A stretch of DNA of 64,000 bases from the IMG/VR virus record IMGVR_UViG_2744054962_000001; one strand, given 5' to 3'. The position numbers and the translations under genes are program-made. The stretch's first letter is position 1; every line of letters starts with the position of its first letter. This document shows positions 20,894 to 29,114 of the stretch, one piece after another. Below the pieces are notes generated by a model. That model did no database searches. It had not been told where the DNA came from and worked only from the letters and a program-made list of their open reading frames with translations. Source of the DNA: a virus (taxonomy: Duplodnaviria > Heunggongvirae > Uroviricota > Caudoviricetes).

Positions 20894-21099
20894 TCGTGCG
20901 TAAAGGATGTTTCGGCTCTCTTATCGCTGCTTCTGAAACTGGTAAGGCTTGTCTGGTATGTCCAGACAAGCCCGATTGTCACCAATCAGCAAAAGAAGTT
21001 GCGATTTCGATGTATGGGAAGTTCGTAGGCTTCCCCAATGACAAAATCAAAAAAACCATAAAGGTAAAAACACATGAAAGCACTGATGGTTCGAACTGA
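20890..21099 (+). CDS. Small Cys-rich hypothetical protein
   Basis: CLVCPDKPDC motif; overlaps both neighbours. Confidence 0.3.
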   Translation: MIVRKGCFGSLIAASETGKACLVCPDKPDCHQSAKEVAISMYGKFVGFPNDKIKKTIKVKTHESTDGSN

Positions 21100-24000
21100 C
21101 TTCTCACTTGGGGAGTCGGCTCTAAAAGCAGAAAACGCGGTGAAGATTGCCAGAGAAGCTGGCTACACCGCTGTAATTTCAGCAGATAGCATGAATATTG
21201 CGAGTGTTATTCCACTACAACGTGCCGCTGGTGACGACATGGCGGTTATTTGTGGTGTGAAACTAAATATCGTTGATGATCCTACATACGAGCACCGGGC
21301 TAAACTTGCTAAAGAATCTATGAGATGTATGGAATCATTAGAGCGGGGACGTAACTACTCGTTTACCGCTCTAATTAAAAATGAGCAAGGATATCGCGAC
21401 ATCTGCGAACTAATGACGGTGGCCAACACACGAGAACAGTTCTACTTTGTACCGCGTCTCTCGCTCGAACAGTTGGTTTCTACATATGCCAAAGGCAACA
21501 TCATCCTGCTCACTTCCGACATCGGTAGCGTGTTCCAACGCAACGATTTTGCAAAAATCATAAGCTCACTGATTACAGCGGGCGGGAAAGACAACTTCTA
21601 TAGCGTGGTTTATCCGCACCCTACCCCATTCTACGACCAGATTAACGTCCGAGCGATGAAAGTAGCCAGCGCACTGAAAATAGAGCCAGTAGCGTTCTAT
21701 CCCGCTTATTACGAATCGATCGACGATGCAGACATTAAAGACATTGCGCACATGGTTACGAACAACATAAAAATCGACCAGCCGCATCGTCTGCGTATCC
21801 CCCACCAGCGAGATAACGCCATCAATGGTCGTCGCCATCTCCTTGAGGCGCTTAAAGCCTTCTCCGTTCGCATGGATGTGCCGGTAACAGCTGCAATGGC
21901 CTCAACAACGCAGGACTCCATTATCGATGCCTGCACATGGCGCTGGCATGAATTGCCACCAGCACTGCCCAAGATGGCAGACGACGAACCTGCAACGCTG
22001 ATGAAACTGGCTGTTGCAGGGCTGCGTAAACGTCTTACCACAAAAGAGTTTGGATACACACCACCTGCTTCTGAGAACAGGGTTTATGTTGAGCGGCTAA
22101 AGTACGAAATGAACACGCTGACTCGCCTGGGATTTTGTGGTTACTTCCTGATGGTACGCGATCTGATGAATCACAGCCGTGAAACTGGCATTCCTGTCGG
22201 GCCTGGTCGTGGTTCCTCTGCCGGTTCTCTGGTGGCGTGGTGCATAGGCATAACCAACGTCGACCCAATCCGTCACGGTCTTCTGTTTGAGCGTTTCATC
22301 AACCCTGAGCGTCTCGACTTGCCGGATGCGGACTTGGACTTCAGCCAGGCACGTCGCCATGAGGTGATCGAGTATCTGAATGAACGCTACGGCGAAGATT
22401 ACGTTGCAGGCATTCCGAACTTCACCTACCTGGGCGCAGCCTCTGCACTACGTGACACCGCTCGTATTTATGGTGTGGAGTCCGCAGATATGGCGGTATC
22501 AAAAGAACTGAAGAACGTCGAGGATGATAGCCTTCCATTGGAAGAGCTGCGCGAACAACTGGCAAGTCTCGACAAATACGCAACAAAATATCCTGATGCA
22601 TTCAATGCAGCCTGCAAGTTACAAAGCCTTATGCGTGGCTTTGGTAGACATGCGGCAGGGATGATTGTAGCAGGTGTTCCTCTGACAGAACGTACACCGG
22701 TTGAGCGCCGTGGTGACGCGCGTTGTATCGCATTTGACAAGCGTTACTGCGAGGCTATGGGCCTAATTAAGCTGGACGTGCTTGGCCTGGCAACTCTCGA
22801 TTTGCTCGATAGTGCAAAACGCTACATAAAAGAGAACACAGGTGAAGATATCAATCTTGATGCCATTTCTCTTGAAGATCGCAAGGTGCTGGATGGTTTT
22901 GCTGCAGGGTATACACAGGGCGTATTCCAGCTGGAGTCCGGCCCCATGCGCAAGCTGCTTAAAGATCTAGGCGGTGGCATTGAGCCAATGAGCTTTAAAA
23001 CCGTTGTCGCCACGACCGCACTCTTCCGACCTGGCCCGATCCAATCCGGCATGTTGGACGACTATGTCTCCGTGGCCAAAGGCTTCATGGCTCCACATTC
23101 AATTCATCCGCGTCTTGAGGAAGTCACCCGGGAGACTAATGGTGTTTTGCTCTATCAGGAACAAATCATGCAAAGTTCCCGAGTACTTGCCGGGTTCTCT
23201 ATGGCCGAAGCAGACGCTCTGCGTTCCGCTATCGGTAAAAAGAACATGGATAAGATGAAAGCGATCGGCAGCGATTTTGTAGAACGAGCACAAGCAGGCT
23301 GGGTGACACTGTCACTCAAAAATGGAGGCACTGTAGAGGTTCACAAACACGCAAAACTGGATTGCTCAGACGGTAAGCGTAGAAGCTACAGCGAGGCTAT
23401 TAGTGACGGCATAGACTACGTGGAGATCGTCTCTGAACAAGAAGGTCTCAGTAAGGAAAAAGCCCAAGAAATATGGGACGCCTTTGAGAAGTTCGGTGGA
23501 TATGCCTTCAATAAATCACACTCCGTTGCTTATTCTTTAATCAGTTATCAGTCTATGTGGTTAAAGACACATTACCCTGCTGAGTTCTTCGCTGCTGCGC
23601 TCACCATTCTGGGCGAGGATAAGCACCAGGGGCTGGTTAAGGATGCGCTGACCTATGGCATTCGCGTATTGCCACCAGACGTTAACGTGTCATCTAACCG
23701 AATCGAGATCCGCACGCTTGAAGATGGCAGCCAGGTGCTGTATGCGCCATTCTCTGCTGTGAAAGGCTGTTCTGAAAATGGTTGTCAGGCAATTATGCGT
23801 GCGCGTGAGAAAGTTGGTGGCAAATTCGAGTCAGTGGCACAATTCGATGAAGCGGTCGAGAAGCGTGCATGTAACAGTCGTGTACGCGAGTCGCTTCATA
23901 AAGTAGGGGCTTTTGCGTCAATTGAGCCAGGCAGTCTGCCAGCAACTGATCCTGAACGACTGCGCGACCAGGCTGAGCTGATGGGCAATCTCATCATTGA

Positions 24001-24580
24001 CGCTGTTAAAGCATCACGTCCGTTCGAAATGAATCCTAAGCGTTCTGCCGAAATCAACGTACTCATGACACGTATGGCGGCTGAAATGGGCTTGGGTGAG
24101 GAGTTGATACGCCCGACTATTGGTATTAAACCCAAAATCATGATCATTCTGGACAATGCGAACGGCAATGACGCTCGTACCGGCTACTTCATGGAGAACG
24201 GATACGACGACTTTAAGGCAAAACTACTGACAGTTGGAGATCTGCGCATGGGCGATCTTTATGTCACGGGTGTTTGTAAGAAGGTTAAGGACAAAGAGAA
24301 AGACTATACCAAAGACGAGATAGGCCAGTTCACAGACTTTATGCGGGAAGAAATTAATCTTGTACGACCAACCTACATTTTGACGTGTGGTAGTCGTTCA
24401 ACCGCACTATTTAACAATAAGAGTAAACCATCAGATCTGATTGGTCGTAAGGAGTACTTCCCAGAGCTTGATGCAACCGTCTTCTACGGATTTAACCCGA
24501 ATATCCTGTACTTCCGACCGGAAGAAGGAGAGCGACTGGAGGCCATTCTGGCTGATATCGCGGAGACAATAAATAAGTAA
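21074..24580 (+). CDS. dnaE: DNA polymerase III alpha subunit (DnaE-type, PHP domain)
   Basis: 1168 aa; conserved blocks GYFLMVRDL, PVGPGRGSSAGSLVAW, LFERFINPER, GYAFNKSHSVAYSLISYQ match bacterial DnaE. Confidence 0.8.
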   Translation: MKALMVRTDFSLGESALKAENAVKIAREAGYTAVISADSMNIASVIPLQRAAGDDMAVICGVKLNIVDDPTYEHRAKLAKESMRCMESLERGRNYSFTALIKNEQGYRDICELMTVANTREQFYFVPRLSLEQLVSTYAKGNIILLTSDIGSVFQRNDFAKIISSLITAGGKDNFYSVVYPHPTPFYDQINVRAMKVASALKIEPVAFYPAYYESIDDADIKDIAHMVTNNIKIDQPHRLRIPHQRDNAINGRRHLLEALKAFSVRMDVPVTAAMASTTQDSIIDACTWRWHELPPALPKMADDEPATLMKLAVAGLRKRLTTKEFGYTPPASENRVYVERLKYEMNTLTRLGFCGYFLMVRDLMNHSRETGIPVGPGRGSSAGSLVAWCIGITNVDPIRHGLLFERFINPERLDLPDADLDFSQARRHEVIEYLNERYGEDYVAGIPNFTYLGAASALRDTARIYGVESADMAVSKELKNVEDDSLPLEELREQLASLDKYATKYPDAFNAACKLQSLMRGFGRHAAGMIVAGVPLTERTPVERRGDARCIAFDKRYCEAMGLIKLDVLGLATLDLLDSAKRYIKENTGEDINLDAISLEDRKVLDGFAAGYTQGVFQLESGPMRKLLKDLGGGIEPMSFKTVVATTALFRPGPIQSGMLDDYVSVAKGFMAPHSIHPRLEEVTRETNGVLLYQEQIMQSSRVLAGFSMAEADALRSAIGKKNMDKMKAIGSDFVERAQAGWVTLSLKNGGTVEVHKHAKLDCSDGKRRSYSEAISDGIDYVEIVSEQEGLSKEKAQEIWDAFEKFGGYAFNKSHSVAYSLISYQSMWLKTHYPAEFFAAALTILGEDKHQGLVKDALTYGIRVLPPDVNVSSNRIEIRTLEDGSQVLYAPFSAVKGCSENGCQAIMRAREKVGGKFESVAQFDEAVEKRACNSRVRESLHKVGAFASIEPGSLPATDPERLRDQAELMGNLIIDAVKASRPFEMNPKRSAEINVLMTRMAAEMGLGEELIRPTIGIKPKIMIILDNANGNDARTGYFMENGYDDFKAKLLTVGDLRMGDLYVTGVCKKVKDKEKDYTKDEIGQFTDFMREEINLVRPTYILTCGSRSTALFNNKSKPSDLIGRKEYFPELDATVFYGFNPNILYFRPEEGERLEAILADIAETINK

Positions 24581-24610: not shown

Positions 24611-24883
24611 AAAGAATTATGGCGCTTGTTGAGGAAGTCACTCCTCTTACGCACTTTGTTTTGCCATGCCGGCAGTTAGCTTCTGCCTTTGACTATTCAT
24701 GCGGCAACCCCGCATTTCGCCACAATGGGCAATTCACTTTTATGGAATAAACTGGCCGTTGTGTCGATTTAATTAGCATGGCCTTACCATGCTAATTTAT
24801 TCAACTTGTACAATCCTACAAATCTATCCACTCAGGCTTACACCGTCTTCGTTATTGTAGAAATGAGGATCATCAGCGTTGAA

Positions 24884-25099
24884 TCAGCTTAGAGCAACGA
24901 CATTTGCTGCTGCTGGGCCTTTAGCACCATTCTCGATAGAGAATTCGACCTGCTGGCCTTCTTCCAAAGTGCGGAAATTATTACTCTGAATTGCCGAAAA
25001 ATGTACAAAAACATCTTTACTGCCATCAGCAGGAGAAATAAAGCCAAAGCCTTTATCAGAGTTAAACCATTTTACTAAACCAGTCATTTTATTAGACAT
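24884..25099 (-). CDS. Cold-shock protein (CspA family)
   Basis: [21 protein letters not shown]...[10 protein letters not shown] cold-shock domain with RNP motifs; ORF-track N-terminal extension is probably 5-prime UTR. Confidence 0.8.
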
Positions 25100-25403
25100 A
25101 GATATTACCTTCTTAATTTTGTGAGCCACATAGTGCGGCGAGAATTTGATCTGTATAGATTGGGACTTACTTAGGCACTTAAGGAGGAGGCTCACGAAGA
25201 AGGGAAATCAGAAGATAACACTGAACTGAGACTGCTTTACTAAAACTGCTTACATAAGGTCTGTCTTGCAAACCAACGATGCTATTAACGCATACCCCTT
25301 CTTTTCATGCAACCTTTATTTTTCAAAGATAACTAATTTTTGTCACCATTGGTTTAGTAAACGTTAACGAACCAGACGATGCCAGACACCTTTACAGAGA
25401 ACA

Positions 25404-25427
25404 GATGCCCGCCAATTGGCGGGCATC
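25404..25427. terminator. Bidirectional hairpin terminator
   Basis: GATGCCCGCC aatt GGCGGGCATC. Confidence 0.55.
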
Positions 25428-25428
25428 A

Positions 25429-25992
25429 TTATGCGCATTTCGCAATATCTTTGCGGCGTTTAATCAGTTTCTCCGCAATTTGCTCTATTTCGTTGAAATC
25501 TTTCGAGACGCTGTTTCGAAGCGCCAGATTCCATTTACTCAAAGTTCGGGCATTTTGGACAATTTGATCGCCCTCTTTAAGTCGTCCGTTATTCATGAGC
25601 CATTCAGCCACATCAGCCCAATCCCAGAGAGGAGACTGGCCTTTTATGCGTTGTACAGGGCTAGGGAAGTCGCCGCTTCCGCGCTTACCGTCTTTGAGCA
25701 ACGCCACTGCCTGGCGAGACAGGTCTGTCAGTTCCGCGATATCGCTTAAGCCCACAAGAGCCGAGTCGACGGATTCAACAATTGCACCGATACCGGCTGA
25801 TTCAATATTGTCGACCGCAGATGCGATAGCTGCATCAAGTGATTGTGCTTCGCGGTCAAATTCTACATAGACGGAGTTTCCATATGCGCAAATTAGCGCA
25901 TCGTCACAGCCGTTTTGGTACAGCGCGTCTTCCAGTCCTTCCGTCTCATACGATACGCCTGAGAGCGTCAGAGTGAAGTTATAAAGCGCCAT
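25429..25992 (-). CDS. Two-domain protein with C-terminal excisionase-like HTH; possible HicB-like antitoxin
   Basis: C-terminal IAELTDLSRQAVALL...GDFPSPV...LWDWADVAEWL resembles HTH_17/excisionase-type motif; sits downstream of a small gene on same strand. Confidence 0.4.
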   Translation of the reverse strand: MALYNFTLTLSGVSYETEGLEDALYQNGCDDALICAYGNSVYVEFDREAQSLDAAIASAVDNIESAGIGAIVESVDSALVGLSDIAELTDLSRQAVALLKDGKRGSGDFPSPVQRIKGQSPLWDWADVAEWLMNNGRLKEGDQIVQNARTLSKWNLALRNSVSKDFNEIEQIAEKLIKRRKDIAKCA

Positions 25993-26052
25993 AGTTTTCC
26001 TTTGAAGATAGTTGGACAGTTTCTGCAAAAGGCGGCTAATGCCGCCTTGAAA

Positions 26053-26277
26053 TCATTTACAACGATCAACCATTCGTTTGATCTGTTTGGCATGGTTTTC
26101 GGGATTACCCGGAGTCGACCATACGCTCATTTGGTGAGTTTTGTGTTCACCTTCTGGATTACCGCATCGCAGTCTGCAAAAACAATGTGCAGCACCACCA
26201 GCAGCTACCCAGATCCAGCCTTTACTTAATGCATAGTCAATGGCTGCTTGAATATGCTTATTCGGATGTTGCTTCAT
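26053..26277 (-). CDS. Small protein, possible HicA-like toxin
   Basis: 74 aa with GW...GGAAH motif loosely resembling HicA GW..GSHH; upstream of the HTH protein in toxin-first order. Confidence 0.3.
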   Translation of the reverse strand: MKQHPNKHIQAAIDYALSKGWIWVAAGGAAHCFCRLRCGNPEGEHKTHQMSVWSTPGNPENHAKQIKRMVDRCK

Positions 26278-26531
26278 TCGCCTCCGATAATAGTATTCTA
26301 TTCACAGTGTTGACATCTGTCAACGGCGACTGAATTTCATCCGTTCATGCCACACCCCCATCCATCTCATGTATGTGACCTAAAGATGGTCAGCACAGCT
26401 TACCAAAATAAGACAACTAATTATCTTCGGTGATCTCAATATCTTCCCCTGAACAAAGTTGACATGACGCCATAAACCCGTTCTCTGTTTGATATAATTG
26501 ATACAGATTTTATAAGTAGGAACCTATTAGA

Positions 26532-26963
26532 GTGAACACTGATATTTTTTCTAAAATCATGGCCGATCTGGAGTTCGACCGCGACAACCTTGAGGAAGTA
26601 TGGCGTAAACAGCCACGGCTTTTAATGGAGTATGGGTCAAAACTAGCGCAGGCAGATCGAGATGTCGCAGAGGCAAAACTTAACCTTGAAGCTGTTGAAG
26701 CAAAGCTATACGACACAGAGCGTAAGAACTTGAGTATGAACGGCATTAAGTTCAACGAGTCTGTACTGGACGCTAAGGTTAAAACAAACCCACAGTATCT
26801 GTCTAAACGGCAGAAGTTGGATGAAGCACGGCACATCGCAGACATATACAAACATGCTGTCGCCGCCTTTTCGCATCGCCGAGACATGATCGTTCAGGCG
26901 TCGAAGATGGCTATCGTTGAATTAGAGCGATTAGGCTCTGAACGCTTTATTACTCCCCGTTGA
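26532..26963 (+). CDS. Hypothetical protein (GTG start)
   Basis: 143-aa ORF upstream of SSB gene. Confidence 0.4.
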   Translation: MNTDIFSKIMADLEFDRDNLEEVWRKQPRLLMEYGSKLAQADRDVAEAKLNLEAVEAKLYDTERKNLSMNGIKFNESVLDAKVKTNPQYLSKRQKLDEARHIADIYKHAVAAFSHRRDMIVQASKMAIVELERLGSERFITPR

Positions 26964-27080
26964 TTTTTGATAGATAATAAGTAAGTACTGATCTATCATT
27001 TAACAGCTCGAAAGAGCCACGAATGAACGAAAGCCCAACGCGCATAGCGCCATCGGCCAAATCACAACAAGGAGAAACAC

Positions 27081-28109
27081 ATGTCTAAGACATTACTTGA
27101 TTTGCTTAACAAAACTCGTGAAGACATTGCCGCCAAACGTGGTAACAACGTTGATCTGACTCGCTTAAAAGACGGCGTCAACTATATCCGCATCTTCCCG
27201 AATAAAGACGACCCAAACGGTAAGTTCTTCCAGACTTTCGGTATGCACTACGTTAAGTATCAGAACGAGGAAGGTAAAGAAGCAACCAACGCTTATATTT
27301 GTGAGCAACATACTCACGGTCGCGCTTGTCAGCTATGCGAAATGGTGATGGAAGGTCGCGCTCGTCACAAGGGTAACAAAGCAATGGAAGAACGCATCGG
27401 TCAAATGCGTGCCACTCCTCGCTACCTGGTCAACGGCATTCTTTCTGCTCGTGAGGATTTCGCAGATGCTGAGAAATGCCAGTTAATCGAGCTGCCGTCT
27501 ACTGTATTCGATGATATCTGCAAAGCAATCACCGAAGACATCGCTGATGATATCGGCAATCCACTGAGCAAAGAGGAAGGCTACGCATTCCTGATTAAAC
27601 GTACTGGCTCTGGTCGCGATACCAAATATGACGTCTCGCCTAAGCGTAAAGTCTACAAAGGCGATATCGAAGATAAATTCTGGAACACCCAGCATGATCT
27701 GATCGCATACGCAAATCAGGCTGATGAAACTCGTCTTCTGTCGACAGTTCGCACTATGGGTCGTCTGATTGGCATCGCTGCACCAACTGCCGCAGCATCT
27801 GCACCAGCAATTTCCTCAACCGCGAAAACATCGGCTGCGGCACTACCTGGATTTGGCTCTGTCACTGGTCATACAGAAGGAGCGACGGCTGTAGCAACCG
27901 CGCACACACCGGCTTCTGAACCAACCAGTCTGGTTGATGAAGAAATCCTCCGTGCCGTTGAAACTGAATTTAAACCAGAGGCAAGTTCCGCTGCCGTTGC
28001 CGTATCAGTCAAAGAGTCTGAAGCAGTCGCAGCGACATCTGTAGCAACCGCATCTGCGACGGAAGATGAAGGTCTGGATGACCTACTGAGAGAGCTGGAC
28101 TCTCTGTAA
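27081..28109 (+). CDS. Single-stranded DNA-binding protein (T4 gp32-like)
   Basis: Zinc-binding His/Cys cluster CEQHTHGRACQLC and acidic Ala/Ser-rich C-terminal tail. Confidence 0.6.
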   Translation: MSKTLLDLLNKTREDIAAKRGNNVDLTRLKDGVNYIRIFPNKDDPNGKFFQTFGMHYVKYQNEEGKEATNAYICEQHTHGRACQLCEMVMEGRARHKGNKAMEERIGQMRATPRYLVNGILSAREDFADAEKCQLIELPSTVFDDICKAITEDIADDIGNPLSKEEGYAFLIKRTGSGRDTKYDVSPKRKVYKGDIEDKFWNTQHDLIAYANQADETRLLSTVRTMGRLIGIAAPTAAASAPAISSTAKTSAAALPGFGSVTGHTEGATAVATAHTPASEPTSLVDEEILRAVETEFKPEASSAAVAVSVKESEAVAATSVATASATEDEGLDDLLRELDSL

Positions 28110-28125
28110 TCCCATTACGTGACCA

Positions 28126-28155
28126 GTAAGGCGTCTACGGACGCCTTACTTTTTG
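28126..28155 (+). terminator. Intrinsic terminator (GGCGTC family)
   Basis: GTAAGGCGTC tacg GACGCCTTAC followed by TTTTT. Confidence 0.55.
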
Positions 28156-28169
28156 GAAGGAATGTACCG

Positions 28170-29114
28170 GTGAATTATCTCTTCGTAGATGGCAATAGCC
28201 TGGGTTATTACCACCAACAATCTGACAAATTGCACAACGGCGAAATGGAAGTACAGGCTGCTTTCGGCTTTGTTAAGAACGTCCGTCGTTATGCCTCCAT
28301 CCTCCATGCCCGACCTATGATTCTTTGGGATGGATTTAGTGACAAGCGTCGCGACTTTTACCCGGACTACAAAGCAAATCGCGACGACGATCCTGATATG
28401 AAAAAGATGAAGGAAGGCTTTGCTATCCAGAAGCCATACATCCTCAAAATGATGACCGCGCTTGGAGTTACCCAACTCATTGCAAAAGATGCAGAAGCGG
28501 ATGATCTGGCCGGGCTGCTGGTATCCCGCATGGCACCGCAGCCAACCGTTGAACACATCTATCTGTTAACAGGCGATAGCGACTGGCTTCAGTTAGTTCG
28601 TGAAAACGTAAGCTGGGTAAGCCTGCGTGAAGACGCCAAAAACAAGCAGGTTAATTTTGAGCAATTTGCGGAGCTGACAGGATTCGCCACGCCTCGCGCA
28701 TTTTTGGAAGCAAAAGCATTACAAGGCGATAACTCGGACAACATTAGCGGTGTTGGTGGCATTGGTGCTGGCGGTGCGAAAGAGCTGCTGCATGAATGGG
28801 GAAGTGTCGCAACGATGGTACGCGGCATCAACGACGGCTCAATCGTGGTTAATAAAGGGCGTCATAAGACCGCCTTCAACAAACTAGCGAAGAATGCCTT
28901 CAACGAGAAAACAGGCTGTCGAATGCTCGAAGCGTTCAAGAGAAACATCACGCTAATGAACCTGATTGAGACGAAGTTTCCGCCTACCGAAATCGAAACA
29001 ATCAAAGGCAATCGTGACGTGAAAGCATTCGAGCAACTGTGCTACGAGCTGAATTTCCGTTCGTTCCTTGAAGACCTTGAAGTGTTTGTTCTTCCATTCG
29101 AAAGGTATTGCTAA
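28170..29114 (+). CDS. 5-prime to 3-prime exonuclease / flap endonuclease
   Basis: N-terminal NYLFVDGNSLGYY, EADDLAG acidic cluster, H3TH motif GDNSDNISGVGGIGAGGAKELL; GTG start at 28170 downstream of the terminator. Confidence 0.7.
   Translation: MNYLFVDGNSLGYYHQQSDKLHNGEMEVQAAFGFVKNVRRYASILHARPMILWDGFSDKRRDFYPDYKANRDDDPDMKKMKEGFAIQKPYILKMMTALGVTQLIAKDAEADDLAGLLVSRMAPQPTVEHIYLLTGDSDWLQLVRENVSWVSLREDAKNKQVNFEQFAELTGFATPRAFLEAKALQGDNSDNISGVGGIGAGGAKELLHEWGSVATMVRGINDGSIVVNKGRHKTAFNKLAKNAFNEKTGCRMLEAFKRNITLMNLIETKFPPTEIETIKGNRDVKAFEQLCYELNFRSFLEDLEVFVLPFERYC

What the first reader, a model, noticed from the sequence alone, without database searches (positions are those of the whole stretch)
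25429..26277. Small protein plus HTH protein pair on the minus strand, possible HicA/HicB-like toxin-antitoxin
A 74-aa protein with a GW...GGAAH pattern sits directly upstream of a 187-aa protein whose C-terminus carries an excisionase-like HTH. The toxin-first order and sizes fit hicAB-type modules, but the sequence resemblance is weak and from memory only.
Basis: inference. Interest (0 to 1): 0.45.

Follow-up and report, generated by a model that had tools for sequence, protein, structure and literature searches.

The report
Uncharacterised toxin-antitoxin-like pair on phage-plasmid
The two genes are real and form a self-regulated, mobile two-gene cassette that behaves like a toxin-antitoxin or phage-defence module, but it is not a true HicA/HicB pair: it belongs to an untested candidate family (PADLOC PDC-M06).

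Summary
A 74-aa gene (26053-26277, minus strand) lies 60 nt upstream of a 187-aa gene (25429-25992, minus strand). Together they form one operon with a strong sigma-70 promoter and a terminator. The window is an SSU5-like E. coli phage-plasmid, 99.8% identical to phage Cyrano/pLF82, where the pair is already labelled HicA/HicB.

Comparative evidence favours a type II toxin-antitoxin-like module:
- The pairing is kept in 117 of 118 loci across several phyla.
- In distant phyla the partner is only the 80-aa N-domain.
- A GTTGAC-N4-GTCAAC operator over the -35 is perfect in 44 of 53 HTH-bearing loci and in 0 of 15 HTH-less loci.
- The small gene is disrupted about 11 times with its partner intact; the reverse occurs once.

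Toxicity is untested.

The parts
26295..26323 (-). Sigma-70-type promoter of the operon: TTGACA (26323-26318), 17-nt spacer, TAGAAT (26300-26295)
   Evidence: 11 of 12 consensus matches. It lies ~18 nt upstream of the A start codon. The genes are transcribed in lysogens (PMC9928086).
26309..26324 (.). Palindromic operator GTTGAC-N4-GTCAAC overlapping the -35 hexamer; predicted binding site of the B dimer
   Evidence: It occurs only once in the 64-kb window. A perfect GTNNAC-N4-GTNNAC palindrome lies 43-67 nt upstream of A in 44 of 53 loci whose B has the HTH and in 0 of 15 loci whose B lacks it; 3% of shuffles give any such palindrome. Both half-sites change symmetrically: GTTTAC/GTAAAC in Pasteurellaceae, GTAGAC/GTCTAC in an Alteromonadaceae locus.
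26281..26285 (-). Shine-Dalgarno GGAGG of gene A
   Evidence: Read directly from the sequence; conserved as CGGAGG in related loci.
26053..26277 (-). Gene A, 74 aa: putative toxin/effector (PADLOC PDC-M06A, phrog_5923). Small a-b-b-(a)-b-a protein with conserved H4, K7, W21, H31, C38, C/H48, T55-P56, H62, C73
26029..26048 (-). Intergenic G+C-rich hairpin AAGGCGGC-AUUA-GCCGCCUU followed by UUUG; candidate partial terminator or attenuator between A and B
   Evidence: stem about -15 kcal/mol. A hairpin of different sequence sits at the same place in about 20 related loci, while 8 other loci have overlapping or abutting genes. In LF82 the fold-above-background value of A is about twice that of B.
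25765..25992 (-). Gene B, residues 1-76: ferredoxin-like b-a-b-b-a-b domain, predicted A-binding (neutralising) domain
25588..25758 (-). Gene B, residues ~79-135: AlpA/excisionase-type winged helix-turn-helix
25435..25566 (-). Gene B, residues ~143-186: two long C-terminal helices, found only in the enterobacterial long form; possible dimerisation element
   Evidence: Absent from the ~150-aa Pasteurellaceae/Neisseria forms.
25404..25427 (-). Intrinsic terminator ending the operon
   Evidence: 10-bp stem with 8 G-C pairs, then a T-rich tail. The next gene (csp) has its own promoter and leader.

Best explanation
This is a self-contained, autoregulated, toxin-first two-gene cassette of the uncharacterised family that PADLOC lists as candidate PDC-M06. 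It most likely works as a type II toxin-antitoxin-like addiction or defence module of the phage-plasmid.

Shown by sequence and comparison: one promoter drives A then B, and a terminator closes the operon. The pairing A then B is almost universal. B's winged HTH co-occurs with a palindromic operator over the -35. The cassette occurs in unrelated mobile elements and at bare chromosomal sites.

Inferred: a B dimer binds GTTGAC-N4-GTCAAC and represses the operon. B's ferredoxin-like N-domain binds and neutralises A. A is a small, probably zinc-stabilised protein with HicA-like a-b-b-b-a topology that is harmful when free, possibly by binding or cutting RNA through the invariant His31. The intergenic hairpin lowers B transcript relative to A. 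When the element is lost, or expression is perturbed, free A arrests growth.
For: - Family: both proteins match PADLOC PDC-M06A/B, at 1.2e-19 and 8.7e-33.
- Operon signals.
- Pairing: 63 of 64 genome loci from at least five phyla, and 54 of 54 viral contigs, have a B homologue directly downstream on the same strand.
- Core interaction: in distant phyla B is reduced to the 70-100-aa N-domain. The conserved core is therefore A plus the B N-domain, as expected for a protein-protein pair.
- Operator: perfect in 44 of 53 HTH-bearing loci and 0 of 15 HTH-less loci, with symmetric half-site changes. It is unique in the window.
- Asymmetric decay: A is broken by in-frame stops, frameshifts or deletions while B stays intact in about 10 genome loci and 1 viral locus. 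One locus has lost both genes (L055), and one shows the reverse pattern.
- Mobility: the cassette is found in an SSU5-type phage-plasmid, an ICE, an integrase islet, a P2/HP1-like prophage next to a Phd/YoeB pair, and bare chromosomal sites.
- Divergence: the pair differs more from SSU5 than its flanks do. A is 57% identical and B 67%, against 83-92% for the flanking genes.
- Expression: both genes are transcribed in lysogeny, with A's fold-above-background about twice B's (PMC9928086).
- Metal site: the Cys/His pattern C38, C/H48 (69 Cys, 13 His) and C73 suggests metal binding.
Against: - No toxicity, neutralisation, binding or anti-phage data exist for this family. No paper mentions PDC-M06.
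- B is a well-folded 187-aa protein with no obviously labile segment.
- One metagenomic contig has A intact with B lacking its first 16 codons.
- Some 'broken A' cases come from MAGs or draft assemblies and could be sequencing errors.
- The zinc site and the A-B contact are inferred from conservation only; no complex was modelled.
Confidence: 0.55

Rival explanations
1. It is a genuine, very divergent HicA/HicB toxin-antitoxin system, as annotated in phage Cyrano: A is an RNase of the HicA family and B is a HicB antitoxin.
Confidence: 0.12
2. It is chiefly an anti-phage defence (abortive infection) system, as its PADLOC candidate status implies: A is an effector released or activated on infection by another phage, protecting lysogens of the phage-plasmid. 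Plasmid addiction would not be the main role.
For: It matches the PADLOC candidate PDC-M06. It sits on prophages, phage-plasmids and an ICE and is expressed as a lysogeny 'moron'. It diverges faster than flanking core genes. In one prophage it lies beside another toxin-antitoxin pair.
Against: PDC systems are unvalidated predictions. Two other PDC candidates that were tested showed no defence (PMC12409345). Several copies sit alone among housekeeping genes. No phage-sensing domain is evident. This role is compatible with the toxin-antitoxin mechanism rather than an alternative to it.
Confidence: 0.2
3. It is a non-toxic regulatory pair: B is an AlpA-type transcription factor of the mobile element, and A is a small modulator (co-repressor or anti-repressor) of B.
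For: B has an AlpA/excisionase-type HTH and a conserved operator. PGAP names B only 'helix-turn-helix transcriptional regulator'. There is no direct evidence that A is toxic.
Against: The operator occurs only at the pair's own promoter in the 64-kb window. In many phyla B has no DNA-binding domain at all, yet stays paired with A. The cassette also occurs outside mobile elements. Preferential loss of A with retention of B is not expected for a regulator and its cofactor.
Confidence: 0.1
4. Reverse polarity: B is the toxin and A the antitoxin.
For: Only that A is the smaller protein and comes first, as in antitoxin-first operons.
Against: About 11 loci keep an intact B with A destroyed, which would be lethal if B were the toxin. 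B carries the DNA-binding domain, which in type II systems usually belongs to the antitoxin.
Confidence: 0.03

Closest known systems
PADLOC phage-defence candidate PDC-M06 (A+B)
   Same: Both proteins match its HMMs (1.2e-19 and 8.7e-33) and are adjacent. This is the family the locus belongs to.
   Different: No difference in sequence terms. The entry is only a computational candidate, and no function, mechanism or publication was found.
HicAB type II toxin-antitoxin systems (Pfam PF07927 HicA; HicB)
   Same: Toxin-first order; a small a-b-b-b-a first protein with an invariant His after a Gly-rich turn; a second protein made of a neutralising N-domain plus an optional DNA-binding domain. Short DBD-less partners also exist, like Gerdes's class 1 (PMC10865869).
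   Different: No sequence or profile match to HicA, and only marginal fold similarity. A has a conserved Cys/His (probable zinc) cluster and an HPNK motif. The partner's N-domain is ferredoxin-like, not a partial RNase H fold, and its HTH is AlpA/MerR-type rather than Xre or RHH.
hicA(T)B of IncI2 plasmids, with an internal terminator between toxin and antitoxin genes (PMC11878559)
   Same: The regulatory layout is the same: a G+C-rich hairpin with a short U tract between the toxin-first gene and the antitoxin gene. Relatives also fall into hairpin-type and overlapping-gene types.
   Different: The proteins are unrelated. Termination at the hairpin here is inferred only from structure and from the roughly 2:1 ratio of fold-above-background values in LF82.
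AlpA/excisionase-type winged-HTH regulators (e.g. PDB 8c3t; phrog_2620)
   Different: B has an extra N-terminal ferredoxin-like domain and a C-terminal helical hairpin. No integrase partner or attachment site is involved. The phmmer E-value is only 0.5.

Membership tests
HicA toxin (Pfam PF07927) | Significant match to the HicA_toxin profile | tested here: not met
   No PF07927 hit for the window protein at E<=10, nor for any of 88 diverse family members at E<=1. NCBIfam also gave none.
HicA toxin (Pfam PF07927) | Profile-profile similarity to experimentally solved HicAs | tested here: not met
   hhalign of the A family against solved HicAs gives Prob 13-15% over 23-25 columns. The control, E. 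coli-type HicA against the same solved HicAs, gives Prob 94.4% over 59 columns.
HicA toxin (Pfam PF07927) | dsRBD-like a-b-b-b-a fold | tested here: inconclusive
HicA toxin (Pfam PF07927) | Catalytic His in the G-S-H turn before strand 2 | tested here: inconclusive
   His31 is kept in 84 of 88 members and preceded by G-x-S-x. The weak hhalign register places it one residue from B. pseudomallei His24. No structural superposition was possible.
HicA toxin (Pfam PF07927) | RNase activity and toxicity neutralised by the partner | not testable with these tools
   Requires experiments.
HicB antitoxin | N-terminal partial RNase H fold (b-b-b-a-b) and a HicB Pfam match | tested here: not met
HicB antitoxin | C-terminal DNA-binding domain (Xre-HTH or RHH) | tested here: not met
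   A DNA-binding domain is present, but it is of AlpA/excisionase winged-HTH type.
PADLOC PDC-M06 | Adjacent genes matching the PDC-M06A and PDC-M06B HMMs | tested here: met
   1.2e-19 and 8.7e-33; the genes are 60 nt apart on the same strand.
PADLOC PDC-M06 | Anti-phage activity | not testable with these tools
   No publication was found. Other PDC candidates that were tested were inactive.
Type II toxin-antitoxin module (generic) | Conserved adjacent pair of small co-oriented genes | tested here: met
   63 of 64 genome loci and 54 of 54 viral loci.
Type II toxin-antitoxin module (generic) | Autoregulation through the antitoxin's DNA-binding domain at a palindrome in the promoter | tested here: met
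   Sequence evidence only. The operator overlaps the -35, is perfect in 44 of 53 loci with the HTH and in 0 of 15 without, and shows symmetric half-site changes. Binding was not tested.
Type II toxin-antitoxin module (generic) | Toxin tolerated only with antitoxin (genetic asymmetry) | tested here: inconclusive
   A is disrupted with B intact in about 11 loci, and the reverse occurs in 1. This is suggestive. Some cases may be assembly errors.
Type II toxin-antitoxin module (generic) | Direct toxicity and neutralisation by protein-protein binding | not testable with these tools
Experiments are needed.

The most novel reading that the evidence does not exclude
PDC-M06 is a new, widespread toxin-antitoxin/defence family. 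Its toxin is a zinc-clamped small protein with only a HicA-like topology, or an independently evolved fold, possibly with a new target. It is neutralised by a ferredoxin-fold domain not previously known as an antitoxin, and DNA-binding modules were added to that domain only in some lineages.
Probability: 0.4. Interest if true: 0.55.

Novelty: new variant of a known kind. Interest (0 to 1): 0.4.

Why it matters
SSU5-like phage-plasmids are common in Enterobacteriaceae. The pair is in 110 of 5,426 complete E. coli genomes, always on ~95-115-kb plasmids, and in 263 PLSDB plasmids including Yersinia and Enterobacter. Their maintenance and exclusion functions affect plasmid persistence. The current 'HicA/HicB' label in Cyrano/pLF82 is probably a misassignment that could spread through annotation transfer. 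If confirmed, the family would add a new toxin fold variant and a new antitoxin fold to the type II repertoire. It would also give the PADLOC candidate PDC-M06 a mechanism. The operator and hairpin offer ready experimental handles.

Tried and rejected
- hhalign against a narrow E. coli-type HicA profile gave only a spurious 16-column match between A's N-terminal HPNK helix and HicA's C-terminal PRHP helix. It was rejected as out of register.
- Foldseek against the PDB gave no significant hit. The afdb50 library was unavailable.
- The search for related loci with the broad alignment A3 failed because the alignment was too diverse; A1 was used instead.
- No internal promoter for B was found.
- The Rfam search of the locus found no RNA element within the operon, only the neighbouring cspA leader.
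- The literature search for PDC-M06 returned nothing.
- The 199-aa TTG-start version of B was rejected in favour of the 187-aa ATG start supported by homologues.

Full report
**What is there**

On the minus strand, a 74-aa ORF (A, 26053-26277) is followed after 60 nt by a 187-aa ORF (B, 25429-25992). B's true start is the ATG at 25992, preceded by AAGGA. Homologues all begin MALYNF, so the 199-aa TTG-start ORF from the mechanical list is an over-extension.

The operon signals are:
- Promoter: TTGACA, 17 nt, TAGAAT at 26323-26295, matching 11 of 12 consensus positions.
- A's ribosome-binding site: GGAGG.
- Intergenic hairpin: an 8-bp G+C-rich stem at 26048-26029, followed by UUUG.
- Terminator: a 10-bp stem at 25427-25404.

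The next gene downstream is a cold-shock gene with its own promoter and a full cspA thermoregulator leader (Rfam RF01766, 187 bits). The A-B unit is therefore delimited on both sides.

**Where the window comes from**

The region is 99.8% identical to Escherichia phage Cyrano, which is plasmid pLF82 of the Crohn's-associated strain LF82. Cyrano is an SSU5-like phage-plasmid (PMC9928086).

There the two genes are annotated 'HicA toxin protein' and 'putative antitoxin HicB'. That label came from BLASTP and Pfam annotation transfer, not from experiment.

The same paper reports both genes as lysogeny-expressed 'morons', 30-fold (A) and 14-fold (B) above the local prophage background.

RefSeq calls them 'hypothetical protein' and 'helix-turn-helix transcriptional regulator'.

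The pair is in 263 PLSDB plasmids from Escherichia, Enterobacter, Yersinia, Citrobacter and others. It is also in 110 of 5,426 complete E. coli genomes, always on plasmids.

SSU5 itself carries a diverged copy at the same position. A is 57.5% identical and B 67%, while the flanking DnaE, UvsY-like, SSB and exonuclease genes are 83-92% identical.

**Is it HicA/HicB?**

Most tests say no.

| Test | Result |
|---|---|
| Pfam and NCBIfam on A and B | no hit |
| Pfam HicA_toxin on 88 diverse A-family members, E<=1 | no hit |
| hhalign, A family vs solved HicAs (1whz, 5yrz, 4c26/6g26 and 6hpb, checked) | Prob 13-15%, 23-25 columns |
| hhalign control, E. coli-type HicA profile vs three solved HicAs (1whz, 5yrz, 4c26/6g26) | Prob 94.4%, 59 columns |
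| Foldseek of A model vs PDB | nothing below E 0.86, no HicA |

The short hhalign match covers helix 1, GW, strand 1, the Gly-rich turn, His and strand 2. It puts His31 one residue out of register with the catalytic His24 of B. pseudomallei HicA.

The AF2 model of A (pLDDT 87.5) has the order a-b-b-(short a)-b-a.

The HicA resemblance is therefore topological and marginal. Distant homology cannot be excluded, because E. coli HicA itself finds no other solved HicA by phmmer. Membership, however, is not supported.

For B, the AF2 model (pLDDT 90.3) has three parts:
- Two long C-terminal helices.

This is not the HicB architecture.

**What family is it?**

Both proteins match the PADLOC phage-defence candidate PDC-M06: A at 1.2e-19 and B at 8.7e-33. 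They also match PHROGs 5923 (unknown function) and 2620 ('excisionase and transcriptional regulator'). No paper mentions PDC-M06.

An exhaustive profile search finds 675 A-family clusters at 50% identity. Across 88 diverse members the near-invariant positions are:
- His4 and Lys7, within an HPNK motif;
- Trp21;
- His31;
- Cys38;
- position 48, which is Cys in 69 members and His in 13;
- Thr55-Pro56;
- His62;
- Cys73.

The Cys-to-His exchange at position 48, and the extra Cys pairs in the variable 38-48 loop of many members, point to a structural metal site, probably zinc. Canonical HicA has no such site. This is an inference from conservation only.

**Comparative evidence for how it works**

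*Pairing.* In 63 of 64 species-representative genome loci, a B homologue lies directly downstream of A on the same strand. These loci come from Enterobacterales, Pasteurellaceae, Neisseria, Alteromonadaceae, Planctomycetota, Verrucomicrobiota, Nitrospinota and Rhodothermales. The same holds in 54 of 54 viral contigs.

*Core interaction.* In the distant phyla the partner is only 70-100 aa and matches only B's N-domain (profile positions 1-76). Pasteurellaceae and Neisseria forms of ~150 aa have the N-domain plus the HTH. Enterobacterales add the C-terminal helices. The conserved core is thus A plus the ferredoxin-like domain, with DNA binding as an accessory. This is the pattern expected if the N-domain binds A.

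*Autoregulation.* A perfect GTNNAC-N4-GTNNAC palindrome lies 43-67 nt upstream of A's start in 44 of 53 loci whose B carries the HTH. Most of the other nine have one-mismatch versions. None of the 15 loci with HTH-less B has it, and only 3% of shuffles give any such palindrome. The half-sites change symmetrically: GTTGAC/GTCAAC in Enterobacterales, GTTTAC/GTAAAC in Pasteurellaceae, GTAGAC/GTCTAC in an Alteromonadaceae locus. In the window the palindrome (26309-26324) overlaps the -35 hexamer and occurs nowhere else in 64 kb. B most likely represses only its own operon.

*Asymmetric decay.* A is inactivated while B stays intact in about 10 genome loci and one viral locus:
- in-frame stops: L023, L062, L122;
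- frameshifts: L049, L053, L066, L067, L070, and L050 near the C-terminus;
- deletions: L068, L071.

One locus (L055) has lost both genes. Only one locus, the metagenomic contig L097, keeps A intact while B lacks its first 16 codons. B is 2.5 times longer than A, so random hits would fall mainly in B. The bias is what a toxin (A) and antitoxin (B) pair predicts. Some frameshifts could be assembly errors.

*Mobility.* The cassette is found in:
- the phage-plasmid studied here;
- an ICE, between type IV secretion genes;
- a small integrase islet;
- a P2/HP1-like prophage, next to a Phd/YoeB pair;
- chromosomal sites among housekeeping genes.

*Intergenic hairpin.* About 20 enterobacterial loci have a G+C-rich hairpin of differing sequence right after A's stop codon. 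Eight other loci have overlapping or abutting genes. This parallels the terminator-type and overlap-type hicAB operons of IncI2 and IncX4 plasmids, where the hairpin raises the toxin:antitoxin ratio (PMC11878559). The roughly 2:1 ratio of A to B fold-above-background values in LF82 fits partial termination, but this was not tested.

**Most likely mechanism (confidence about 0.55)**

The locus is an autoregulated, toxin-first, type II toxin-antitoxin-like cassette.
- A B dimer binds the operator and represses transcription. This step is inferred, with strong sequence support.
- B's ferredoxin-like N-domain sequesters A. This is inferred from the co-conservation pattern.
- Free A is harmful. This is inferred from the asymmetric decay. 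A may act on RNA through His31 by analogy with HicA, but that analogy is weak.
- The biological role is either post-segregational stabilisation or competition of the phage-plasmid, or abortive-infection defence. The data cannot separate these.

Rivals, in order of weight, are a defence-first role (0.2), true but very divergent HicAB (0.12), a non-toxic regulator-plus-modulator pair (0.1) and reversed polarity (0.03).

**Novelty and score**

The locus is already catalogued as PDC-M06 and already labelled HicAB in one phage record, so the existence of a toxin-antitoxin-like pair here is not new.

New points from this analysis are:
- the HicAB label fails membership tests;
- the partner has a ferredoxin-like fold;
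- A carries a probable metal site;
- the operator, the hairpin and the decay asymmetry together give a testable model.

I rate it a new variant of a known kind, with moderate interest (0.4).

Noticed in passing
window 24859-25277 (-): A complete cspA thermoregulator leader (Rfam RF01766, 187 bits) precedes a cold-shock protein gene on the phage-plasmid (CDS ~24884-25100; 'cspG' in CP057127). It has its own promoter-like site at 25346-25318 and lies directly downstream of the A-B terminator.
   Followed up: partly
P0039 (Shewanella homologue of A); A3 alignment: NCBI names one A-family homologue 'ribulose bisphosphate carboxylase small subunit'. 14 of 88 family members give sub-threshold Pfam RuBisCO_small hits. 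This is probably an annotation artefact from local similarity, though the helix/strand order of the aligned part is alike.
   Followed up: partly
L097 3273-3352 region (IMG/VR UViG_3300013741_000046): An 80-bp deletion relative to L098 removes B's ribosome-binding site and first 16 codons while A stays intact. It is the only counter-example to 'A decays first'. It could be an assembly artefact or a tolerated truncated B.
   Followed up: partly
L042 8499-8738 (Mannheimia indoligenes): A stand-alone 79-aa ORF matches only the winged-HTH part of B (profile 81-147). It lies 1.8 kb downstream of the A-B pair.
   Followed up: no
window 21074-24580 and 26532-29114 versus SSU5 (L072): The A-B pair sits at a fixed position between the DnaE-like polymerase and a UvsY-like/gp32-like SSB/exonuclease recombination module. 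The pair is much more diverged from SSU5 (57-67% aa identity) than these flanks (83-92%). SSU5 has a different 141-aa gene where this element has the csp gene.
   Followed up: partly
L076 7641-8152 (Histophilus somni prophage): In a P2/HP1-like prophage the A-B cassette lies within 1 kb of a Phd/YoeB toxin-antitoxin pair. This is an example of toxin-antitoxin clustering in a prophage accessory region.
   Followed up: no
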